Positions 1-16,625 of a stretch of 16,625 nucleotides of DNA are shown piece after piece (the stretch's first letter is position 1; the number at the start of each line of letters is the position of its first letter). This stretch comes from a virus. The stretch is taken from the UHGV virus genome UHGV-1607792; one strand, given 5' to 3'. Position numbers and translations under genes: made by a program. The notes under the pieces are model-generated. The model made no database searches, was not told the DNA's origin, and saw nothing but the letters and a program-made list of their open reading frames with translations.

Positions 1-332
1 CCTGCAACAGTCACGCCAAGCACTGTGCCACTTGCAGTGCCGCCAGTACTGCCAAGCACAAGTTTTTGTGCATTTGTGACACATTTCAATGTTGCAATAG
101 TGCCACCATTTGACGCAATGTTTGTAGATGCAACTGTAGCTCGTATAGTTTCACCAGGAGACTCTTGCAATACTGCACAGTTTTCAGTTACTACTGGTGA
201 ACCTGTAGTTGTTTGTGCAGTAAAGCTGCCAGACCTGTTGTTTCGACCAGTATGCACAGATGCTTTGACAGACAACTGTGAGTTGCCTGTGCCAACATCA
301 GGTGTGACTGTCAACCAAGTAGGCTTTGCCAT
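1..332 (-). CDS. BACON-like/Ig-like domain protein, N-terminal 110 codons only (3' end lies beyond window start)
   Basis: Not in ORF track because it has no stop in the window. ATG at 330-332 (minus) opens a frame with no stop to position 1: MAKPTWLTVTPDVGTGNSQLSVKASVHTGRNNRSGSFTAQTTTGSPVVTENCAVLQE... The W-L-T-V ... R-x-G-x-F-T ... V-L-Q pattern matches the BACON-type signature seen in the 761-aa protein. Same strand as all other genes, 55 nt after the stop of the upstream gene. Confidence 0.6.
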   Translation of the reverse strand, partial: MAKPTWLTVTPDVGTGNSQLSVKASVHTGRNNRSGSFTAQTTTGSPVVTENCAVLQESPGETIRATVASTNIASNGGTIATLKCVTNAQKLVLGSTGGTASGTVLGVTVA

Positions 333-387
333 TTTATGTCGTTTTGTTATTTTCTGTGATATTTACACACACAATGTAACTTGCATT

Positions 388-2316
388 TTATCGAACATGC
401 CAAAGAGTGTTCGACTTCACATTGACAGAGCTCTTAAAGTTATTATGACTGCACAACCAAACATGTGACTTATCAAGTTCTGCATAGGCATCTGACTTTA
501 AGAATGCTTCAGAAGATTTGCTTGTCTGTTGCTTTGTCATTGATGCATCACCTACAAGCATCGCAGTTGAGCCTTTGTACACTTGTTGTGCATCATCTGC
601 AATCAACGTAGCTTCAAATGGCTGTTGCTGCATAAGCAATGCAAGTGTAGACCGACATGAATCTTTGTCTACTCTTATATGTGTAATTTTGCCGGCAAAA
701 CCATACAGCTGAACAATGTCTGAGTCATTTGACCAGTCATGCAAAATTGATGTAGACTTAACAACTTCTGTCAAAATTTGCATGTCATTAACTACAGTAG
801 ATGTCGACAAACTCAGTACAAGTTCAACGTCACCATTGTCAAGATTGCGTAGTCTAATGACTACACCGTTCCAGCTCTTGCAAATCTTATCATCTACGCT
901 TGCTAAGCTTTCGCCAGTTTTGACATCAAGCACATGCAACAAGCCAGATGACACTACAAGCATCAATCTGCCAAGTCGCATCAGTTGCCATGATGCTGCT
1001 TGAGCTTTTGCGTTGTCTTCAAGCATAAACAAGCAACATGCAGACCAATCTGACACATCAAGCGATTTAACATACTCAACTGCGATGTTATTGCCAACTG
1101 CGTTCATGTCATAGAACGCAGCAGACACTGGCACATATTTGAACGACAGCGGTGATTCATTTACACTGACTGCTTTATGAATGAATCTGCGATTAGTCTC
1201 ATACATGCTCAAGTCGACATGCATGTCATTAACAAACATATTGAGAGCAATGTCTTCGACTTGTTCAGTTGCAACTTTGTCTGCATCAAAAGCATCGAAT
1301 GTTTGTGTGAGCTCGTCCAAATTAAGTATCTCTTTCACATCATCAGCAACTTGCATCTTAGACTCGTCACGATATTCAGGTCGATGCTCATATGACTTCA
1401 ATGTTAGCTCATAATATGGCGTTGATAACATAATGCCATCTGGATGCTGCACAGATGCGACTTCAAGCATTCGATTTGCTATTGGCACGTAGCAATAGTC
1501 AAATTGCTGCGGCTGCTTGCCAATGCCAAATACTCGTTCATATTCTGCTTTTGGCACATGAGCTGTTATGCCTTGTTCAAAATCAATGTCAAATGCGTCA
1601 TATGTGACTTTGTTCGTGCTAAATTCATTGTCAACGACCATCAACTTCAGCCACTTAACTGCGCCAGTATGAATCAAATCATATGCACGCAATGATGCAA
1701 CACGATGTTCATCTGACACTTCATGACTAAACCAGATAACAACATGACCAAGCTGACGATTCACAGCATTTACAATGTTGTCTTGCAATGCTATAGCATC
1801 TTGCATGTGCGTGTATGGATTGTACAGATGATTGTCTGATTCAATGACAATTGATGCTTGTTTTGCTGGTGCAAAAATCTCGTCAGCATATGTGACATTG
1901 TCAACAGACTCTTCATTGACTTTGATGTCTTCAAGCACATATGAGTCATGACGAACATTTGCTGCATCTGTCCATTGCTTGCGCCATGCAATATCAACAA
2001 TCATAATGAACTTGACATGCACTGGTTCGTCCGCAGTTGCATATGCAAGTACAAACTCATTCAAATGCGTTGCAGCATCATACACAGACCCAGGCTCAGA
2101 CCACGTCTTGCCTACATCTACAGACCATTTGAACTGCACATTGAGCATTGCATGACATTGCTCAGCATTGTCGACAAGCTCAATGTTATTCAACGAGCCT
2201 TTGATATCTGCAGCAAATTCAAGATACAGCGTAGAATCTTGTCTTACGATAATGCAATCGTTATCAGCCCTTTGTGACACTGACCGCTTTGTTGATTCGT
2301 TTGATGACTTTGCCAT
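388..2316 (-). CDS. hypothetical protein, 642 aa, acidic; no recognisable motif
   Basis: Long ORF with ATG start (2314-2316) and TAA stop (388-390); same strand and composition as neighbours. Its start overlaps the end of the upstream 516-aa gene by 53 nt in another frame. Confidence 0.8.
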   Translation of the reverse strand: MAKSSNESTKRSVSQRADNDCIIVRQDSTLYLEFAADIKGSLNNIELVDNAEQCHAMLNVQFKWSVDVGKTWSEPGSVYDAATHLNEFVLAYATADEPVHVKFIMIVDIAWRKQWTDAANVRHDSYVLEDIKVNEESVDNVTYADEIFAPAKQASIVIESDNHLYNPYTHMQDAIALQDNIVNAVNRQLGHVVIWFSHEVSDEHRVASLRAYDLIHTGAVKWLKLMVVDNEFSTNKVTYDAFDIDFEQGITAHVPKAEYERVFGIGKQPQQFDYCYVPIANRMLEVASVQHPDGIMLSTPYYELTLKSYEHRPEYRDESKMQVADDVKEILNLDELTQTFDAFDADKVATEQVEDIALNMFVNDMHVDLSMYETNRRFIHKAVSVNESPLSFKYVPVSAAFYDMNAVGNNIAVEYVKSLDVSDWSACCLFMLEDNAKAQAASWQLMRLGRLMLVVSSGLLHVLDVKTGESLASVDDKICKSWNGVVIRLRNLDNGDVELVLSLSTSTVVNDMQILTEVVKSTSILHDWSNDSDIVQLYGFAGKITHIRVDKDSCRSTLALLMQQQPFEATLIADDAQQVYKGSTAMLVGDASMTKQQTSKSSEAFLKSDAYAELDKSHVWLCSHNNFKSSVNVKSNTLWHVR

Positions 2317-3814
2317 TGCGAGGATTTATGATTGCAAGTTCAATATCATAGTCGCCGATATGACGAAAATGATGTCTAAAAAGATATTTGTCAGATGTAG
2401 CTTCAATGACTCCACCAGATATTGCATTGCGATATGTGCATGTCCATTTGATGTCATGTGGAGCATAAGCATATGACAGCTCATCTGGGAAGCAGCACAC
2501 TTGACTACCAACTGTCACAGTTGCGCCATTGTCAATCTTGCAAAACCTTGTATCATTTGGTCTACGTTGCACTGCATAGTGATGCTGACATTCAAACATG
2601 TCTGATTTGATTGACAGAGTTTGCCAAGGTGATTCAATTAGATATCGAGGCTTTTGAGACTCTTCACTTACAAGTTTACAATGCAACCCAAGATTTTCAA
2701 GCTCTTCAACAAGTTGAGTGTTTGCAATGTGTAGGGTGTAGTGTTTGTCATTTGTGTGTATTTCCACATCATGCTCAGTAACATCAACGACATCTGCAAT
2801 GATTGTCGCAGGCCAATTGCCAGTCAGCTCAAAGTCATCAAATGAGAAATGCAAATCTGTTTTGACATGCAATTGTGCTCTGCTCATAGGCTCTTTGCTG
2901 TACGCATACAATGCCCATTGCATTGAATTGTCAAGCATCTGAATTTCTTGCACAGACCATGTAAACTTCACAAATTGTGAATCTGCTTGCAATTCACAGT
3001 AGTCATTGATTTGTTTGAGCAAGTCTTTAACATCTGTGTATGCAATGTTGACTTCATCTGCGTCAACTTGAACGCCATCAACATCGACAAACTCAGACAT
3101 CGACATTGCAAATGTGCCAGCACCTTCAATATCAATTTGCATGTTCAGATATGTTGAGCCGTACTGCAACAATCGCATGCAATCAGAATCAATAAGTTTG
3201 ATGTCATTCAAATGGTCAAGCCATAGAACATTTGATTGCGCCTTGTCAAGATTGTAGAGCCATTTTATGATTGAGTCGTCTTTTTTGACATTTTCTGGGT
3301 CAAACACATTTGGGTCTGGGTAACTCATGAAATCTGGCACGCCCAATGCTTTTCGTGTGCTATAGTACAATGTAGCATTGTTCATGCCTGCAATATCAAT
3401 TGACTCATCAAGCTCTTGAAGCTTTGCAGCAATTTGAGACAATGAATTGCCAGCATATGACTGCTCAAGTGAATGTAGTTTGCAGTCTGCAATAGCAATG
3501 ACGAAGTTTGCTTGCAATTCTACGATGTTCAGTGTGCGTTTGAACACTTGCACTTGACCATAGCAATCTTTAATAGTCAACACAAGTTCATATGCACCTG
3601 CAGTTGTTATGCCAAGCTTAAGATGCTGTTGAACATCAAGATACGTTCTGTCAAACACAAGCTTGCCAGATTCATCATAGATTTCATATGTAGCTTCTCT
3701 ACAATTTTGTATGAGCGCAGATAAGTCTGTGTCTTTTGATGACCATGCTGCAATTGAAATGTCTATAATTGCTACATTGTCTCTATAAAAAAGCCCTATA
3801 GGTTGTGGATTCAT
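2264..3814 (-). CDS. hypothetical protein, 516 aa; possible beta-sandwich segments at both ends (weak)
   Basis: ATG at 3812-3814, TGA at 2264-2266; begins 11 nt after the stop of the 149-aa gene. Confidence 0.8.
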   Translation of the reverse strand: MNPQPIGLFYRDNVAIIDISIAAWSSKDTDLSALIQNCREATYEIYDESGKLVFDRTYLDVQQHLKLGITTAGAYELVLTIKDCYGQVQVFKRTLNIVELQANFVIAIADCKLHSLEQSYAGNSLSQIAAKLQELDESIDIAGMNNATLYYSTRKALGVPDFMSYPDPNVFDPENVKKDDSIIKWLYNLDKAQSNVLWLDHLNDIKLIDSDCMRLLQYGSTYLNMQIDIEGAGTFAMSMSEFVDVDGVQVDADEVNIAYTDVKDLLKQINDYCELQADSQFVKFTWSVQEIQMLDNSMQWALYAYSKEPMSRAQLHVKTDLHFSFDDFELTGNWPATIIADVVDVTEHDVEIHTNDKHYTLHIANTQLVEELENLGLHCKLVSEESQKPRYLIESPWQTLSIKSDMFECQHHYAVQRRPNDTRFCKIDNGATVTVGSQVCCFPDELSYAYAPHDIKWTCTYRNAISGGVIEATSDKYLFRHHFRHIGDYDIELAIINPRNGKVIKRINKAVSVTKG

Positions 3815-7473: not shown

Positions 7474-7498
7474 ATCAGTTAATTTGTTTGTATATGTA

Positions 7499-7572
7499 TT
7501 CGAATGTGCACACATGAGAATAGGTCTCTTCGAATGTGCACATATGAGAATAGTCTCTTCGAATATGCGCAC
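7499..7572. repeat. 2.5 tandem copies of a 30-bp direct repeat; each unit stacks three palindromic cores (TTCGAA, TGTGCACA, CATATG)
   Basis: Unit 1 at 7499-7528: ttcgaatgtgcacacatgagaataggtctc. Unit 2 at 7529-7557: ttcgaatgtgcacatatgagaatagtctc. Partial unit at 7558-7572: ttcgaatatgcgcac. Lies between a terminator and the ATG of the 536-aa gene. Confidence 0.8.
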
Positions 7573-7603
7573 AAAAAGAAGAGCTTGCATATGCAAGCTC
7601 TTC
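7573..7603 (-). terminator. intrinsic (Rho-independent) terminator candidate
   Basis: Perfect 26-bp palindrome gaagagcttgcat|atgcaagctcttc (7578-7603), giving an 11-bp stem and ATAT loop, followed on the minus-strand transcript by UUUUUGUG. About 43 nt downstream of the 127-aa gene stop. Confidence 0.7.
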
Positions 7604-10402: not shown

Positions 10403-11299
10403 CTACAGTGTTCCGCAAAGTAATTCACGTAAATCCATGCCAGCTTGTGTGCTGTATTGAGCAATCATGTTGCGTTCAGCTTCAGACATGCTCCAATAGA
10501 TTTTGTGAAAACTGCGTTTGATAATTGTATGAATGCCAGATGTGCTACAGTTGAGCTTCTTTGCAAGTTCTGCATGAGTTAGCAAATCAGCATCGCCAAG
10601 GCCATATACATGCGTAAGTACGAGCTTTTCATTTTGTGTGAGCTGTTCAAATGCTCTTTGCAGAATCTTTGTGTTGCGTTTGTGAGCATCCTCGATTTCA
10701 AGAACTTCTTGACCTGTTTTGAAGTCTGACCTCAAATCATTCTGAACTGGCGACCATGTATCGCCATCTTTGTCAAGTGTAGTGTCATCTTTGCTGGTGA
10801 ATTGTTTGACTTCAAGAACTCTTTCATATGCTCCACGAATACCAGTAGATAATTGTTGACTTGTCAGATTGAGTTCGTCAAGCACATATTTCTTAATCCA
10901 AGGATATGCATATGTGCTAAACTTTGCTTCACGAACTCCTGCAGGCAATACGCCTTCTACGTAATTCTTGGCTGCTATTGACAATCCAAGATTGCCTGCT
11001 TGAATGACATCATCCAATGGAACCGAGCGTTTGCCAGATGCGAACCATAAGCTTCGTGCAACTGATATGACCAATCTTAAACAAGATTTGATAAGAGCTT
11101 CACGATTTTCTTGAGTCTTCTTGAATCGAGTAACATCACAATATCGCTTTGCAGTAGCCAGCGATTTGACTTCTTCAGGAGTAAGCTCATTCTCCATCCT
11201 CATTTGCTTGAGCTCTTCCTTTGTGTATAGACGTTCTCTTGTGATTCTACCTACGTCCTTTACGTAGCCTTGATTGATTTGTGAATTTGAACCTGCCAT
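10403..11299 (-). CDS. sigma-70 family RNA polymerase sigma factor, 298 aa
   Basis: Region 2 signature: LRLVISVARSL...LDDVIQAGNLGLSIAAKNY...KFSTYAYPWIKKYVLDEL, compared from memory with the E. coli RpoD segments LRLVISIAKKY / LIQEGNIGLMKAV / KFSTYATWWIRQAI. Region 4 helix-turn-helix: LTHAELAKKLNCSTSGIHTIIKRSFHKI. ATG at 11297-11299, TAG at 10403-10405. Flanked upstream by a 133-bp AT-rich gap and downstream by a GC-rich hairpin terminator. Confidence 0.85.
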   Translation of the reverse strand: MAGSNSQINQGYVKDVGRITRERLYTKEELKQMRMENELTPEEVKSLATAKRYCDVTRFKKTQENREALIKSCLRLVISVARSLWFASGKRSVPLDDVIQAGNLGLSIAAKNYVEGVLPAGVREAKFSTYAYPWIKKYVLDELNLTSQQLSTGIRGAYERVLEVKQFTSKDDTTLDKDGDTWSPVQNDLRSDFKTGQEVLEIEDAHKRNTKILQRAFEQLTQNEKLVLTHVYGLGDADLLTHAELAKKLNCSTSGIHTIIKRSFHKIYWSMSEAERNMIAQYSTQAGMDLRELLCGTL

Positions 11300-14310: not shown

Positions 14311-16625
14311 TTATCGTATGATGAATGGTTTGTTGGTATCTTCAATAATCATTGAGCCGATGCCATGTAACTCTTGAGTAACCTCGACAGATACGTCTTG
14401 TGCAGTGTTGTACGAGCACTTGAATGCTGCAACTCGACTAAATGCGTCAATGTCTGAGTAACTGAGTTCATCGACTTGCATTGAGATTTCACCAATTGCT
14501 GGCGTAGTCTTTGATGGTGTCATTGTGATGTCATGCAGCCAGCCCGGATTGCCAACTATGACTGCTGTCAATGATTCGCCATCAATTGGGTTGATGATTT
14601 CATAGTTGAAGCTTAAAGTCTTTGCAGTATCATCAGTTGTTGCCGATGCAGGTGTAATGTTGATTGTTGTTACGCCCTTAGCAGCTTGAACAACTTGTGC
14701 TGTGACATCTTGAGCATTGATGTGAGAGAACTTAACTGAACAACTGCGTTGTTCTGTCGTCAAGTTGCGGTCACATTCAATAGTCAAGTAGCCCCTGCCA
14801 GTATTATCGTCATATTCGAAGTTTGTATCGGTAAATGTGCCATCATTGTCAAGCACTGCATATGACAACTGCTGGCCTGCAATTGGGTTGCCAACAGTAA
14901 TTTCGAACTGTACTTGAGTATCTGTCGACTTCAATTGAGCATTCATTGGTTCGACAGTTATCGTTGACATGCCTTGAGCTGCTTGTGTGATGCTGACCGT
15001 TACATTGTCAGCAGTCATGTATGACAGTCTCAAGTATAAGTTACGAGTAGCTGTTGCAGTGTTGATGTCAAGCGCAAATTGTATTGTGCCGGCTGACATA
15101 TTAACTACAGGTTCGCCAACAAAGCCAGAGCCCTCTGTCGTAACTGTCAGTGTTTCACCTTCAATAGGGTTGATGATGCTAAAGTTAACTGTGAACGAAC
15201 CGCCATTAGCTGCTGCGTTGATTGTCAATGGTTCGGCATTGATGACTGTAGCTTCTTTAGCAGCTTGAGTAAGCAAGACTGCTACATTGTCAGCAGTTGG
15301 ATATTGCAGTACAATATTTGCTGTACGAGCAGTTGTTTGCAATGTCTTGTCATAATCAAATGTAATCTTGTCATCAGCAACTTGAACGTTGTGAATCCAG
15401 CTTTCTGTTGCATATGCAGTGACTGCTGCACCAGCAAAGCCATTACGAATTTGATATGCAATTTCAGCTGAACCACCTGCTGCATTGAGTGACATAGAGC
15501 TTGTAACAATGATTTCTGGCCTTGTTGAAACACCTGTACTGTATTGAACTACAGATGCAATTACACGAGGCTCAAATATGACAGCATTTGCAGAGCCGCC
15601 AAATGTAGGTGTTGCAATCACATAGATTGGCCAAACTCCACTTGATGCGACATTACGTAAGATTGCTTGATAATGCAGTTCATTGCATGCATCTTGCAAT
15701 TCACTCCACGTTTTTGTAGTGTCAATTGATGTCAAGCATGCTGGCAATACTGCGCATGTTGATGGCTTATCCGCATCAATGGGCATTGCATTGCCACCTG
15801 CTATTGGCTTGTAGCTCAAGTCAACTTTGACTGATGCATAGCCATTGCCATACACAATGAATGGTATAGTGATATCGAACAAAATATCGACTGTTGCAGG
15901 CATGTTCAGATATGCAGGCAGCGGTATGAGTGTTTGCATTGCTGTCGTGCCTGGTACGTGGTCATCGAATGATTCAACATACACAGGTGGTGTCAAGTCA
16001 TCTTTATGCGCATATTCTGCGTGAGTGTGGTCTGAATGCGACACTGTGCTTGCATAACCAGAACCACCAAAGTTCTTATTAAATGCAGAGCCCTTTGCTT
16101 CTTCAGTTAATCTGCCAGAGCCATCATATGACAATACTGTATTTGATGCACCGACACCTGCTGCAAGATGATTTGAGCCATCAATGAAGACATGTTTGTA
16201 TTGACGTTCAAACAAATGAGCATCAAAATTGTCAAATATCGAATTGAACAACTTTTTGACTGCAGATGCTGTAGGCAGATGTTTGTTTGCATTTGCGCCA
16301 TCGATAATGATGCTTGACCAATTGTCTGAGCTCTTGAAGATGCTAAGAAGCATATCAACAACTTTGCCAGTAGCATCTGTGCCAAGAACACTTGCACCAG
16401 GCAATTTCATCAATTGTAAGTCGACTGTTGCAGCAAGTTTAAGCAGCTGTTTTGTCAATGTCAGAATGTCTGTGACAGCACCAGCATCTGACAATGCAGC
16501 AATGCGATATGACTGATTGATGAGTTGCGCAAACTTATACGCACGAATGAATGACTCTCGCTTTGCTTCTGCATCCAAGCCTTTTGCCAAGAACAACTCA
16601 TCATATTTCAGATTTGCATATGACA
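14311..16625 (-). CDS. large repeat protein with four tandem BACON-like/Ig-like domains at the C-terminus; 5' end lies beyond window end
   Basis: The frame is open to the last base of the window; the track's start at 16596 is a TTG and upstream codons continue in frame. TAA at 14311-14313. Four homologous 50-100 aa repeats, each ending (T/N)A(D/Q)(D/N)V(T/S/A)V.(V/I/L)TQ(A/E)(A/L).G, with internal NPI(E/A/D)G and R-T/S-A motifs. Confidence 0.8.
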   Translation of the reverse strand, partial: SYANLKYDELFLAKGLDAEAKRESFIRAYKFAQLINQSYRIAALSDAGAVTDILTLTKQLLKLAATVDLQLMKLPGASVLGTDATGKVVDMLLSIFKSSDNWSSIIIDGANANKHLPTASAVKKLFNSIFDNFDAHLFERQYKHVFIDGSNHLAAGVGASNTVLSYDGSGRLTEEAKGSAFNKNFGGSGYASTVSHSDHTHAEYAHKDDLTPPVYVESFDDHVPGTTAMQTLIPLPAYLNMPATVDILFDITIPFIVYGNGYASVKVDLSYKPIAGGNAMPIDADKPSTCAVLPACLTSIDTTKTWSELQDACNELHYQAILRNVASSGVWPIYVIATPTFGGSANAVIFEPRVIASVVQYSTGVSTRPEIIVTSSMSLNAAGGSAEIAYQIRNGFAGAAVTAYATESWIHNVQVADDKITFDYDKTLQTTARTANIVLQYPTADNVAVLLTQAAKEATVINAEPLTINAAANGGSFTVNFSIINPIEGETLTVTTEGSGFVGEPVVNMSAGTIQFALDINTATATRNLYLRLSYMTADNVTVSITQAAQGMSTITVEPMNAQLKSTDTQVQFEITVGNPIAGQQLSYAVLDNDGTFTDTNFEYDDNTGRGYLTIECDRNLTTEQRSCSVKFSHINAQDVTAQVVQAAKGVTTINITPASATTDDTAKTLSFNYEIINPIDGESLTAVIVGNPGWLHDITMTPSKTTPAIGEISMQVDELSYSDIDAFSRVAAFKCSYNTAQDVSVEVTQELHGIGSMIIEDTNKPFIIR
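14362..15405 (-). repeat. tandem array of four protein-level repeats (BACON-like beta-sandwich modules) inside the 761-aa CDS
   Basis: Approximate residues 398-745 of the track protein. Repeat ends: ...NVAVLLTQAAKE / ...NVTVSITQAAQG / ...DVTAQVVQAAKG / ...DVSVEVTQELHG. Repeat starts: ATVINAEP / MSTITVEP / VTTINITP. Diverged at nucleotide level. Confidence 0.6.

What the first reader, a model, noticed from the sequence alone, without database searches (positions are those of the whole stretch)
1..332. Second BACON-like gene, missing from the ORF track, at the window start
Translating the minus strand from the ATG at 330-332 gives an open frame of at least 110 codons to the window edge. Its N-terminus (WLTVTPDVGTGNSQLSVKASVHTGRNNRSGSFTAQTTTGSPVVTENCAVLQE) has the same W...R...F-T...V-x-Q architecture as the repeats in the 761-aa protein. 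Two BACON-like proteins therefore bracket the block of unassigned genes, consistent with a surface or host-interaction module. The 147-aa plus-strand ORF at 25..468 is most likely its antisense shadow.
Basis: seen in the sequence. Interest (0 to 1): 0.5.

Follow-up and report, generated by a model that had tools for sequence, protein, structure and literature searches.

The report
Split BACON domain across phage genes
The open frame at the window edge is the real start of a 1,442-residue gut-phage surface protein whose first domain is an incomplete BACON fold; the missing strands sit at the end of the neck-like protein encoded just upstream, which suggests, but does not prove, that the two proteins snap together to dock the fibre on the virus.

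Summary
Observation confirmed. From the ATG at 330-332 the minus strand is open for 110 codons to the window edge. The source contig ends there too. In two 175-kb relatives the same 110 residues start a 1,442-aa T/S/A/G-rich protein, followed by two ~200-aa paralogues.

The N-terminus is BACON-type but incomplete: residues 4-56 cover only positions 38-90 of a 92-position BACON profile. The first strands (A-C by position) are absent.

The missing piece is a ~33-aa module. It ends the ~200-aa paralogues (split or circularly permuted BACON). It also ends the 642-aa neck-like protein encoded 55 nt upstream, and occurs in the 449-aa protein.

The pairing [quoted passage not shown] recurs in crAss-like, Flandersviridae-like and other gut-phage contigs.

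Best explanation: a virion fibre or adhesin docked by in-trans completion of a split BACON fold. This is inferred from sequence, synteny and co-variation only; no interaction was shown.

Paralogy with the 761-aa protein is not supported. The plus-strand ORF 25..468 is a shadow frame. BACON proteins in gut phages are known; I found no description of the split arrangement.

The parts
1..332 (-). 5' end (110 of 1,442 codons) of the gene for a giant T/S/A/G-rich repeat protein (putative virion fibre or adhesin); the gene continues beyond the window
   Evidence: Open frame; full-length ORF in L003:11985-16313 and L002; P0121, 1,442 aa, 99% identical; 12/12 substitutions synonymous
165..323 (-). Residues 4-56: the 'acceptor', i.e. 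the C-terminal two-thirds of a BACON domain (profile positions 38-90 of 92); the first strands are missing
   Evidence: Translation; own BACON profile, hmm 38-90, 33.5 bits; family C-half profile 63.6 bits, best decoy 5.5; Pfam BACON model positions 8-57 of 61
1..164 (-). Residues 57-110: start of a ~115-aa beta-sandwich 'middle' domain shared with the ~200-aa paralogues
   Evidence: Residues 1-205 of the 1,442-aa protein align with the full length of p199 (E 3e-18) and p204 (E 2e-12); AF2 model of the 204-aa family is all-beta, pLDDT 90
333..387 (.). 55-nt intergenic gap between the neck-like gene and the finding's gene; the two reading frames differ, the downstream frame has an in-frame stop 10 codons upstream of its ATG, and there is no terminator-like site, so these are two polypeptides, probably co-transcribed
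   Evidence: Sequence; stop-to-stop ORF 3..362; scan
391..489 (-). Last 33 residues of the 642-aa neck-like protein (AYAELDKSHVWLCSHNNFKSSVNVKSNTLWHVR, then stop): the 'donor' module equivalent to the first BACON strands
   Evidence: Translation; module conserved in homologues down to 34% identity and triplicated in P0257/58/60; hhalign of the module alignment: 94.7% (P 6e-8) to the C-terminal piece of the 202-aa family, 75% (P 2.5e-5) to columns 5-37 of canonical BACON, 0.1% to the C-half control; joined to the next gene's N-terminus it matches canonical BACON at hmm 7-90, 53.2 bits
388..2316 (-). 642-aa neck-like (T4 gp13/gp14-type) virion protein that carries the donor module
   Evidence: PF11649 16.3 bits in the window protein, 25.7 bits (cutoff 25) in homologue P0260; phrog_679 'head closure Hc2' E 5.7e-5; homologue annotated 'neck protein' in Chryseobacterium phage MA9V-2
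4362..4457 (-). A second donor-type module (PLLELDKANLSFEQPGGTKNITLTSNRAWDVR) near the C-terminus of the 449-aa protein encoded after the baseplate wedge gene
   Evidence: Translation; family N-half profile 16.8 bits, E 2e-5, best decoy E 0.12; homologues carry the module at the extreme C-terminus (L013) or at the N-terminus (L015, L011)
25..468 (+). Antisense shadow ORF (147 aa, GTG start), not a gene
   Evidence: Shares third codon positions with the minus-strand gene; no Pfam hit; antisense ORFs are short and broken along the 4.3-kb gene in the relatives
14311..16596 (-). 761-aa protein with four ~95-104-aa weakly BACON-like repeats (context; not a demonstrable paralogue)
   Evidence: Pfam BACON 23.4 bits in 3 stretches; hhalign 16%, P 0.0016, in register; BLASTP against the 1,442-aa protein E > 3

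Best explanation
Window 1-332 (minus strand) is the start of a 1,442-aa protein of a ~175-kb gut myovirus distantly related to jumbo phages of Bacteroidota. SHOWN: the protein consists of an N-terminal incomplete BACON domain (residues 4-56, lacking the first strands, A-C by position in the domain), a ~115-aa beta-sandwich, one complete BACON (about residues 172-258), eleven ~100-aa T/S-rich repeats of an unnamed type, and a short tail ending FLVR. SHOWN: the missing strands exist as a discrete ~33-aa module. It lies at the very C-terminus of the neck-like protein encoded 55 nt upstream, in the 449-aa protein encoded after the baseplate wedge gene, and at the C-termini of two ~200-aa paralogues encoded just downstream. 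INFERRED: after translation the fibre's N-terminus and one of these modules assemble in trans into one complete BACON beta-sandwich, in the manner of donor-strand complementation or a natural SpyCatcher-like split Ig domain. This would dock the long Ig-like fibre, and perhaps the ~200-aa proteins as adaptors, onto the neck or baseplate. INFERRED from published work on other gut-phage BACON proteins: the docked fibre acts as a glycan or mucus or host-surface adhesin.
For: Gene and length. Incomplete BACON: own 92-position profile places residues 4-56 at positions 38-90. About 35 of 130 cluster representatives start with the same M-A-K-P-x-W element at residue 1. Only 10 codons are open upstream of the ATG, too few for a 33-aa piece. 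Missing piece elsewhere: the C-termini of ~200-aa proteins match positions 3-35, and artificial C-to-N permutations match positions 3-90 at 48-56 bits. The module in the neck-like and 449-aa families matches by hhalign at 94.7% and 75%, against a 0.1% control. No C-half is detectable in any neck homologue. The module is a repeatable unit, three copies in P0257/58/60. Adjacency in separate lineages, found with a profile not trained on them and scoring above all reversed decoys: L004 (P22-portal phage) 29.1 bits, L009/L018 (Flandersviridae-like) 21.3/19.2, L016 (crAss-like cr127_1) 30.1, L017 13.2; cr111_1 by eye. Conserved synteny of the neck-like gene followed by an array of proteins that all start with the acceptor. 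The window's own donor plus acceptor joined give hmm 7-90, 53.2 bits, against 33.5 for the acceptor alone. Donor tails resemble the partner protein's own tail within a genome more than across genomes (W-type versus F-type; exhaustive permutation P 0.002-0.006). Presence/absence: MA9V-2 has the neck gene but neither module nor acceptor genes. Gap lengths of 1 to 200 nt, different frames and in-frame stops argue for two polypeptides. Adhesin role: BACON and Ig-like ORFs of crAss-like and Flandersviridae-like gut phages raised epithelial or mucus adherence when displayed on phage K1F (PMC13370021). That paper does not say how they attach to their own virions.
Against: No physical or structural evidence for the trans complex: only monomer prediction was available and coordinates could not be inspected. 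The ~200-aa proteins may simply close on themselves; the AF2 monomer is compact (pLDDT 90, pTM 0.77) but in only one of five models. By analogy residues 172-205 of the 1,442-aa protein could complete its own N-terminus. One clade member (P0256/L013) lacks the module on its neck protein yet has the array, although its 454-aa protein has one. In csAssE-Sib the ~200-aa gene stands alone with no donor within 9 kb. The window donor scores weakly with single-sequence HMM searches (6-9 bits); the strong scores come from a profile of modules I selected, which carries some selection bias. The lineages in the permutation test are not independent. The neck assignment of the 642-aa protein is below the Pfam cutoff in the window protein, and its AF2 model is poor (pLDDT 56.6). 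The adhesin role is transferred from other proteins whose sequences I could not compare.
Confidence: 0.55

Rival explanations
1. Self-contained circular permutation. The N-terminal partial BACON is completed within the same chain, by the piece after the middle domain (residues ~172-205 in the large protein, the C-terminus in the ~200-aa proteins). The similar modules on the neck-like, 449-aa and small upstream proteins do something else: a small beta element of their own, or a conserved recombination joint for swapping adhesin cassettes.
For: The first 205 residues of the large protein are homologous to the whole ~200-aa proteins. Permuted sequences align end to end with BACON. The AF2 monomer of the 204-aa family is compact and confident at both termini, and similar compact models exist in BFVD (TM 0.74-0.79). 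The csAssE-Sib homologue has no donor nearby.
Against: It leaves unexplained why a BACON first-strand module with no second half is conserved at protein level at the ends of unrelated carrier proteins directly upstream in at least five lineages, duplicated within carriers, and co-varying with the partner. In the large protein, residues 172-205 are followed directly by their own canonical second half (206-256), so one second half stays unpaired in either reading.
Confidence: 0.3
2. One reading: an ordinary second BACON-repeat protein, paralogous to the 761-aa protein, the two bracketing a host-interaction module.
For: Both proteins hit Pfam BACON just below the cutoff (24.0 and 23.4 bits). Both end in a similar C-terminal tail ending F.[IV]R.
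Against: No significant pairwise similarity. Their repeat units are unrelated by hhalign (0.2%). The 761-aa protein does not hit the full BACON profile (E 2.7). The genes between them are baseplate, neck and sigma-factor genes.
Confidence: 0.08
3. The two halves are joined on one polypeptide by programmed frameshifting or readthrough from the neck-like gene into the next gene.
For: The halves are adjacent and in the right order. In L009 the 7-nt gap is an A7 run.
Against: Gap lengths are 1, 7, 10, 29, 55 and 200 nt, with stops and different relative frames. In the window the downstream frame has an in-frame stop 10 codons upstream of its ATG. In L011 the 200-nt gap carries tandem repeats.
Confidence: 0.03
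4. The plus-strand ORF 25..468 is the real gene and the minus-strand frame is the artefact.
For: It is 147 codons long, and because it shares third codon positions the substitution pattern is nearly as kind to it (111 synonymous / 49 non-synonymous against 121/38 over the whole gene).
Against: No family hit. Antisense ORFs are short and interrupted along the 4.3-kb gene, while the sense frame is open for 1,442 codons. The sense product has strong homologues. All other genes of the window are on the minus strand.
Confidence: 0.01

Closest known systems
BACON domain proteins of gut phages (Pfam PF13004 / PF19190; crAssphage BACON tandem-repeat protein; de Jonge et al. 2019, PMC6949934)
   Same: Same domain type, same habitat (human gut; relatives infect Bacteroidota), location beside structural genes, and a presumed surface or binding role.
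   Different: Described phage BACON ORFs are treated as carrying whole domains, singly or in tandem. Here the first domain starts at profile position 38 and the missing strands are on another protein. Most of the 1,442-aa protein is a different, unnamed repeat.
Ig-like and BACON 'modular adhesins' of crAss-like and Flandersviridae-like gut phages (Nat Commun 2026, PMC13370021)
   Same: The ~200-aa paralogue family has a homologue in Phage DP SC_6_H4_2017 (MT121964), the record named as closest to that paper's adherent vOTU_131. Proposed adhesin function.
   Different: I could not compare sequences with the proteins they tested because the supplement is truncated. That work fused the proteins to a foreign capsid and does not address native attachment.
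Donor-strand complementation in chaperone-usher pili; engineered split Ig-like domains (SpyTag/SpyCatcher)
   Same: Works like: an incomplete Ig-like beta-sandwich on one polypeptide is completed by strands from another (from my own knowledge of these systems).
   Different: No sequence relationship. Here about three strands (33 aa) would be donated, not one. No chaperone or isopeptide chemistry is implied. The interaction itself is not demonstrated.
T4 neck (gp13/gp14) with collar and whiskers (fibritin), and T4 Hoc
   Same: A neck-type protein encoded next to a fibre gene; Ig-like domains displayed on the virion for adhesion (BAM model).
   Different: No homology of the fibre to fibritin or Hoc. 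Attachment through a split domain is not known for T4. The neck assignment here is by weak profile hits.
~200-aa 'lipocalin-like protein, BACON binding domain' of crAss-like phages cr111_1 and cr127_1
   Same: True homologues of the two paralogues downstream of the finding's gene, and of the first 205 residues of the 1,442-aa protein.
   Different: Those are complete ~200-aa proteins that begin and end inside a BACON domain. The window's gene continues for another 1,240 residues.

Membership tests
Pfam BACON (PF13004) | Whole-protein score at or above the curated cutoff of 25 bits | tested here: not met
   Fragment 24.0 bits (E 3.8e-5); full 1,442-aa protein 20.2 bits. Paralogue p204 34.0 bits and clade member P0126 68.5 bits pass.
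Pfam BACON (PF13004) | Significant sequence similarity to canonical BACON repeats | tested here: met
   phmmer against 1.84 billion proteins: E 3e-41 with 20 matched repeats in P0122 and 22 in P0211; own profile of P0122 repeats, 33.5 bits, positions 38-90.
Pfam BACON (PF13004) | A complete ~90-residue beta-sandwich domain within one chain | tested here: not met
   The N-terminal element covers only positions 38-90 of 92, and only 10 open codons lie upstream of the ATG. A complete copy does exist at residues ~172-258 of the full protein, outside the window.
Pfam BACON (PF13004) | Carbohydrate, mucin or cell-surface binding | not testable with these tools
   Only a literature lead (PMC13370021, PMC6949934).
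Split / permuted ~200-aa BACON family (p204-like; over 1,150 hits) | Starts at residue 1 with the C-terminal two-thirds of BACON (M-A-K-P-x-W...) | tested here: met
   C-half profile 63.6 bits, hmm 1-56; alignment A1.
Split / permuted ~200-aa BACON family (p204-like; over 1,150 hits) | Homology over the whole ~200-residue unit (C-half, middle domain, first-strand piece) | tested here: met
   BLASTP of residues 1-205 of the 1,442-aa protein against p199 E 3e-18 and p204 E 2e-12. Only residues 1-110 lie in the window.
Split / permuted ~200-aa BACON family (p204-like; over 1,150 hits) | Length ~200 aa, ending right after the first-strand piece (...SN..W.[IV]x then stop) | tested here: not met
   The protein runs on to 1,442 aa. 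It is a long-form relative, like P0126 (807 aa) or the L011 protein of more than 2,384 aa.
Trans-complemented split Ig-like domain (works like donor-strand complementation) | Donor and acceptor pieces on separate polypeptides that together make one domain | tested here: met
   At sequence level only.
Trans-complemented split Ig-like domain (works like donor-strand complementation) | Physical complex of donor and acceptor | not testable with these tools
   No multimer prediction and no access to coordinates. The AF2 monomer of the 642-aa protein leaves residues 564-642 below pLDDT 50, which is compatible but weak.
T4 neck protein gp13/gp14 (PF11649), for the upstream 642-aa protein | Score at or above the 25-bit cutoff | tested here: inconclusive
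   Window protein 16.3 bits; homologue P0260 25.7 bits; phrog_679 E 5.7e-5; no PDB hit with the family profile.
Paralogue of the window's 761-aa protein | Significant pairwise or profile similarity | tested here: not met
   BLASTP E > 3; hhalign of repeat units 0.2%. Only a similar ~15-residue C-terminal tail, not significant by HMM.

The most novel reading that the evidence does not exclude
The donor and acceptor pieces form a polar, pilus-like assembly line. Anchor proteins (neck-like, 449-aa, or 70-200-aa adaptors in crAss-like and Flandersviridae-like phages) carry only donor modules. The ~200-aa proteins carry an acceptor at the N-terminus and a donor at the C-terminus and act as chainable links. 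The giant proteins (1,442 aa, 807 aa, over 2,384 aa) carry only an acceptor and cap the chain as the distal fibre. Gene order (donor, then both, then acceptor) mirrors assembly order in several loci (L004, L009, L011). This would be a general plug-and-socket system by which abundant gut phages exchange and mount adhesins.
Probability: 0.2. Interest if true: 0.85.

Novelty: new variant of a known kind. Interest (0 to 1): 0.6.

Why it matters
BACON and Ig-like proteins mark the most abundant human-gut phages and have recently been tied to mucus and epithelial adherence, but how they are mounted on the virion is not described. A BACON fold split between a structural protein and the adhesin encoded next to it gives a concrete, cheaply testable attachment mechanism. 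The test would be a 33-residue peptide plus a ~60-200-residue acceptor. The split would also explain the odd 'half-domain' ends that make these genes look truncated or mis-called. It would explain how adhesin cassettes can move between unrelated phages together with a small adaptor. It could also offer a natural protein-ligation-free docking pair for phage engineering. If the complementation does not occur, the result is still useful: the feature is a correctly delimited gene start of a giant repeat protein and a widespread circularly permuted BACON family.

Tried and rejected
- The word-indexed protein search with the 110-aa fragment found nothing. The exhaustive search was needed.
- Megablast of window 1-2400 against GenBank phages found no match.
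- PHROGs gave no hit for the fragment, the 1,442-aa protein or p199.
- Foldseek of the 204-aa model against the PDB gave only generic two-Ig-domain hits, including BoGH5A 3ZMR and BvGH123, with no functional clue.
- PDB profile searches with the 202-aa family and the neck family found nothing.
- AF2 of the 642-aa protein was too poor (pLDDT 56.6) to justify a fold search.
- I tried to match our proteins to those tested in PMC13370021 through its supplement. The stored file is truncated and no sequence motif was found.
- The substitution pattern as a strand discriminator is weak, because the shadow ORF shares third positions.
- The C-terminal tail of the large proteins read as a shortened donor is not significant by HMM. 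It is left as an observation.
- A frameshift or readthrough fusion is rejected on gap lengths, frames and stops.
- Paralogy with the 761-aa protein is rejected.
- Literature searches for a permuted or split BACON, or for fold complementation in phage Ig-like proteins, found nothing relevant in the held library. This is not proof of absence.

Full report
**1. The observation**

On the minus strand an ATG at 330-332 opens a frame that stays open for 110 codons to base 1. The ORF list omits it only because ORFs that run off the source are not listed. All long ORFs in the window are on the minus strand.

**2. Extending past the edge**

The neighbouring 642-aa protein is encoded on one ENA contig of 16,603 bp, and that contig ends where the window ends. 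A scan of viral contigs found two IMG/VR contigs of 175.6 and 174.6 kb carrying the same region at 97-98% protein identity. In both, the 110 codons are the start of a 1,442-codon ORF; in L003 the first 110 residues are identical to the window's.

An exhaustive phmmer search with the fragment recovered that protein (P0121, 1,442 aa, 99% identical). Inside the 110 codons, all 12 nucleotide differences from the two relatives are synonymous third-position changes.

**3. The plus-strand ORF 25..468**

- It lies in the antisense frame that shares third codon positions with the gene. Substitution patterns therefore barely discriminate the two frames: 121/38 synonymous/non-synonymous in sense against 111/49 in that antisense frame, over the whole gene.
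- It has no family hit.
- Antisense ORFs are short and broken along the 4.3-kb gene.

**4. What the protein is**

The composition is T 21%, S 14%, A 13.5%, G 10.5%. Its parts are:

- **Residues 1-205:** homologous to the entire length of two small proteins encoded directly downstream in the relatives, p199 (E 3e-18) and p204 (E 2e-12).
- **Residues ~172-258:** one complete BACON domain.
- **Residues 259-1425:** eleven tandem units of ~100 aa. By hhalign they are neither BACON (1.7%) nor like the repeats of the window's 761-aa protein (0.2%).
- **C-terminus:** a short tail, ...GLAIPNMVVGTSFLVR.

**5. BACON, but incomplete**

| Test | Result |
|---|---|
| Pfam BACON, fragment | 24.0 bits (cutoff 25), model positions 8-57 of 61 |
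| Pfam BACON, p204 | 34.0 bits (passes) |
| Pfam BACON, clade member P0126 | 68.5 bits (passes) |
| Exhaustive search, fragment against canonical BACON arrays | up to 20-22 tandem repeats matched (P0122 E 3e-41; P0211) |
| Own 92-position profile from 11 P0122 repeats, fragment | residues 4-56 cover only positions 38-90 (33.5 bits) |

Only 10 codons are open upstream of the ATG. About 35 of the 130 cluster representatives begin with the same M-A-K-P-x-W element at residue 1. The truncated start is therefore a conserved feature, not a gene-calling error.

**6. Where the missing strands are**

- The ~200-aa proteins end exactly with the missing piece (...TLVLDKQEITIPQAGTPAVTVTVTANCPWTVS, then stop; positions 3-35).
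- Artificial C-to-N permutations align end to end with the BACON profile (positions 3-90, 48-56 bits).
- This family is large: more than 1,150 hits, of which the 120 listed are all 201-205 aa. It occurs in crAss-like, Flandersviridae-like and other gut-phage contigs.
- An AF2 model from its alignment is all-beta with pLDDT 90 and pTM 0.77, but only in one of five models.

**7. The same piece ends the upstream gene**

The 642-aa neck-like protein is encoded 55 nt upstream of the finding's ATG. It ends AYAELDKSHVWLCSHNNFKSSVNVKSNTLWHVR, then stop.

- Single-sequence HMM scores for this tail are weak: 6.2 bits on the generic profile and 8.6 bits on a family profile. Both are still above all reversed-sequence decoys.
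- The tail is conserved in homologues down to 34% identity.
- It occurs three times in the longer homologues P0257, P0258 and P0260.
- The 449-aa protein encoded after the baseplate wedge gene carries one too (16.8 bits, E 2e-5). Its homologues carry it at either terminus.

An alignment of 14 such modules was compared by hhalign:

| Compared with | Probability | P |
|---|---|---|
| C-terminal piece of the 202-aa family | 94.7% | 6e-8 |
| Columns 5-37 of canonical BACON | 75% | 2.5e-5 |
| The other half of the domain (control) | 0.1% | 0.55 |

None of the neck homologues contains the second half. Joining the window's 33-aa tail to the next gene's first 58 residues gives a continuous match to canonical BACON (positions 7-90, 53.2 bits, against 33.5 for the N-terminus alone).

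**8. Generality**

A profile trained only on the jumbo-phage modules finds the module at the C-terminus of the gene immediately upstream of the ~200-aa gene in unrelated phages:

| Locus | Phage | Upstream gene | Score | Best decoy |
|---|---|---|---|---|
| L004 | P22-portal phage | 82 aa | 29.1 bits | 10.1 |
| L009 / L018 | Flandersviridae-like | 198 aa | 21.3 / 19.2 bits | 10.1 / 2.9 |
| L016 | crAss-like cr127_1 | 70 aa | 30.1 bits | 2.9 |
| L017 | unverified gut phage scaffold | 101 aa | 13.2 bits | 2.9 |
| L007 | crAss-like cr111_1 gp003 | 126 aa | by eye only | - |

Further points:

- **Synteny:** within the window's clade the order is conserved at 34-39% identity. The neck-like gene is followed by an array of proteins that all start with the acceptor: 683, then 209, then over 2,384 aa; 613, then 201, 807, 210, 210 aa; 642, then 1,442, 199, 204 aa.
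- **Co-variation:** donor tails track the partner's own tail type, W-type or F-type. An exhaustive permutation over 8 genomes gives P 0.002-0.006. The lineages are not independent.
- **Presence/absence:** Chryseobacterium phage MA9V-2 has the neck gene but neither the module nor acceptor genes.
- **Two polypeptides:** gaps of 1-200 nt, differing frames and in-frame stops exclude a simple fusion by readthrough. No terminator-like site lies between the two window genes.

**9. Context**

- The phage is a distant relative of jumbo myoviruses of Bacteroidota (Chryseobacterium MA9V-1/2, Tenacibaculum pT24/PTm1, Flavobacterium MaF61), Prevotella phage records, Sphingomonas phage PAU and huge uncultured phages.
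- The window holds a sigma factor, a gp6-like wedge (phrog_219, E 2.7e-22) and the neck-like protein.
The BACON genes sit at its end, where MA9V-2 has none.

**10. Mechanism**

- **Shown:** gene structure; homology; the split of the BACON sequence between adjacent genes; its recurrence.
- **Inferred:** the two pieces assemble in trans into one beta-sandwich and so dock the fibre on a neck or baseplate protein. This follows Rosetta-stone logic, because the two pieces are one domain in canonical proteins.
- **Main rival:** the ~200-aa proteins, and by analogy the first 205 residues of the large one, close on themselves as circular permutants, and the upstream modules have another role.
- **Limits:** I could not run multimer predictions or inspect coordinates. 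The AF2 monomer of the 642-aa protein leaves residues 564-642 unfolded, but the model is poor throughout.

**11. Function**

BACON and Ig-like ORFs of crAss-like and Flandersviridae-like gut phages increased epithelial and mucus adherence when displayed on phage K1F (PMC13370021). Earlier work placed phage BACON ORFs near head or tail genes and proposed binding roles (PMC6949934). The homologue in MT121964, the closest record to that study's vOTU_131, lies between the capsid and connector genes. An adhesin role for the 1,442-aa fibre is therefore plausible but transferred, not tested.

**12. Novelty**

BACON proteins in gut phages are known. I found no description of a split or permuted BACON, or of docking by fold complementation, in the held literature, and there are no solved relatives. 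I class this as a new variant of a known kind. The finding as written is ordinary: a truncated gene with a BACON-like start. The split architecture uncovered around it is the interesting part, and it still needs structural or biochemical proof.

Noticed in passing
window 7494-7583: Three tandem ~30-nt direct repeats (TTCGAATGTGCACA[C/T]ATGAGAATAG...) just upstream, on the minus strand, of the baseplate wedge gene. Possibly a regulatory array; the long TTG-started 577-aa ORF probably starts downstream of it (the contig's own call is 575 aa).
   Followed up: no
L011:10053-10251: The 200-nt gap between the neck-like gene and the first BACON gene of a relative holds 4-5 tandem copies of ATCATTGCATAGAAAT and an inverted repeat (AAAGCATGCTTTT). 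Such intergenic repeat arrays may be a clade feature.
   Followed up: no
window 10403-11299 (-): A sigma-70-family factor (regions 2 and 4; phrog_351, E 5e-25) is encoded in the middle of the structural block.
   Followed up: partly
window 14311-16596 (-); L003:11985-16313; P0126; L016:3646-4362: Four otherwise unrelated proteins end in a similar tail: ...HGIGSMIIEDTNKPFIIR, ...NGLAIPNMVVGTSFLVR, ...GGIGEMIVESNFFVR and ...TGIGRLKIGTNFIIR (each followed by the stop). It may be a shortened donor-type element or a separate anchoring peptide; it is not significant by HMM.
   Followed up: partly
window 14311-16596 (-): The 761-aa protein has an N-terminal region with ...SGYASTVSHSDHTHAEY, which from memory resembles motifs in tail-fibre proteins, followed by four ~95-104-aa weakly BACON-like repeats. 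It is probably a tail fibre.
   Followed up: partly
L016:396-2765 (cr127_1 gp_26500, 789 aa): This protein carries two to three first-strand BACON modules (27-28 bits) and no detectable second half, making it another multi-donor candidate in a crAss-like phage.
   Followed up: no
L008:5004-5660 (phage csAssE-Sib): The ~200-aa split-BACON gene sits alone, on the opposite strand, among replication genes and tRNAs, with no donor module within 9 kb. It looks like a moron-type insertion and argues that the small proteins can function alone.
   Followed up: partly
L003:12759-16259 (residues 259-1425 of the 1,442-aa protein): Eleven tandem ~100-aa T/S-rich units (consensus ...GG...YSQ...Y.SGS...G...LGTT.K.RTK.GT.TVTV..NGKSASK..DVYQAAN) with no Pfam or PHROG family. 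The same units occur in P0148, P0153 and P0184.
   Followed up: partly
L009:11895-11901: The gap between the donor-carrying gene and the split-BACON gene of MT121964 is exactly AAAAAAA, a potentially slippery run. A frameshift fusion was judged unlikely overall but was not excluded for this phage.
   Followed up: no
L009:12599-12907 and L017:3595-3888: The ~100-aa proteins just downstream of the split-BACON gene in Flandersviridae-like phages start with what looks like another acceptor-type BACON piece (M.KV.I.WGDGSGDN...R...V.Q). This gives a donor, both, acceptor gene order.
   Followed up: no
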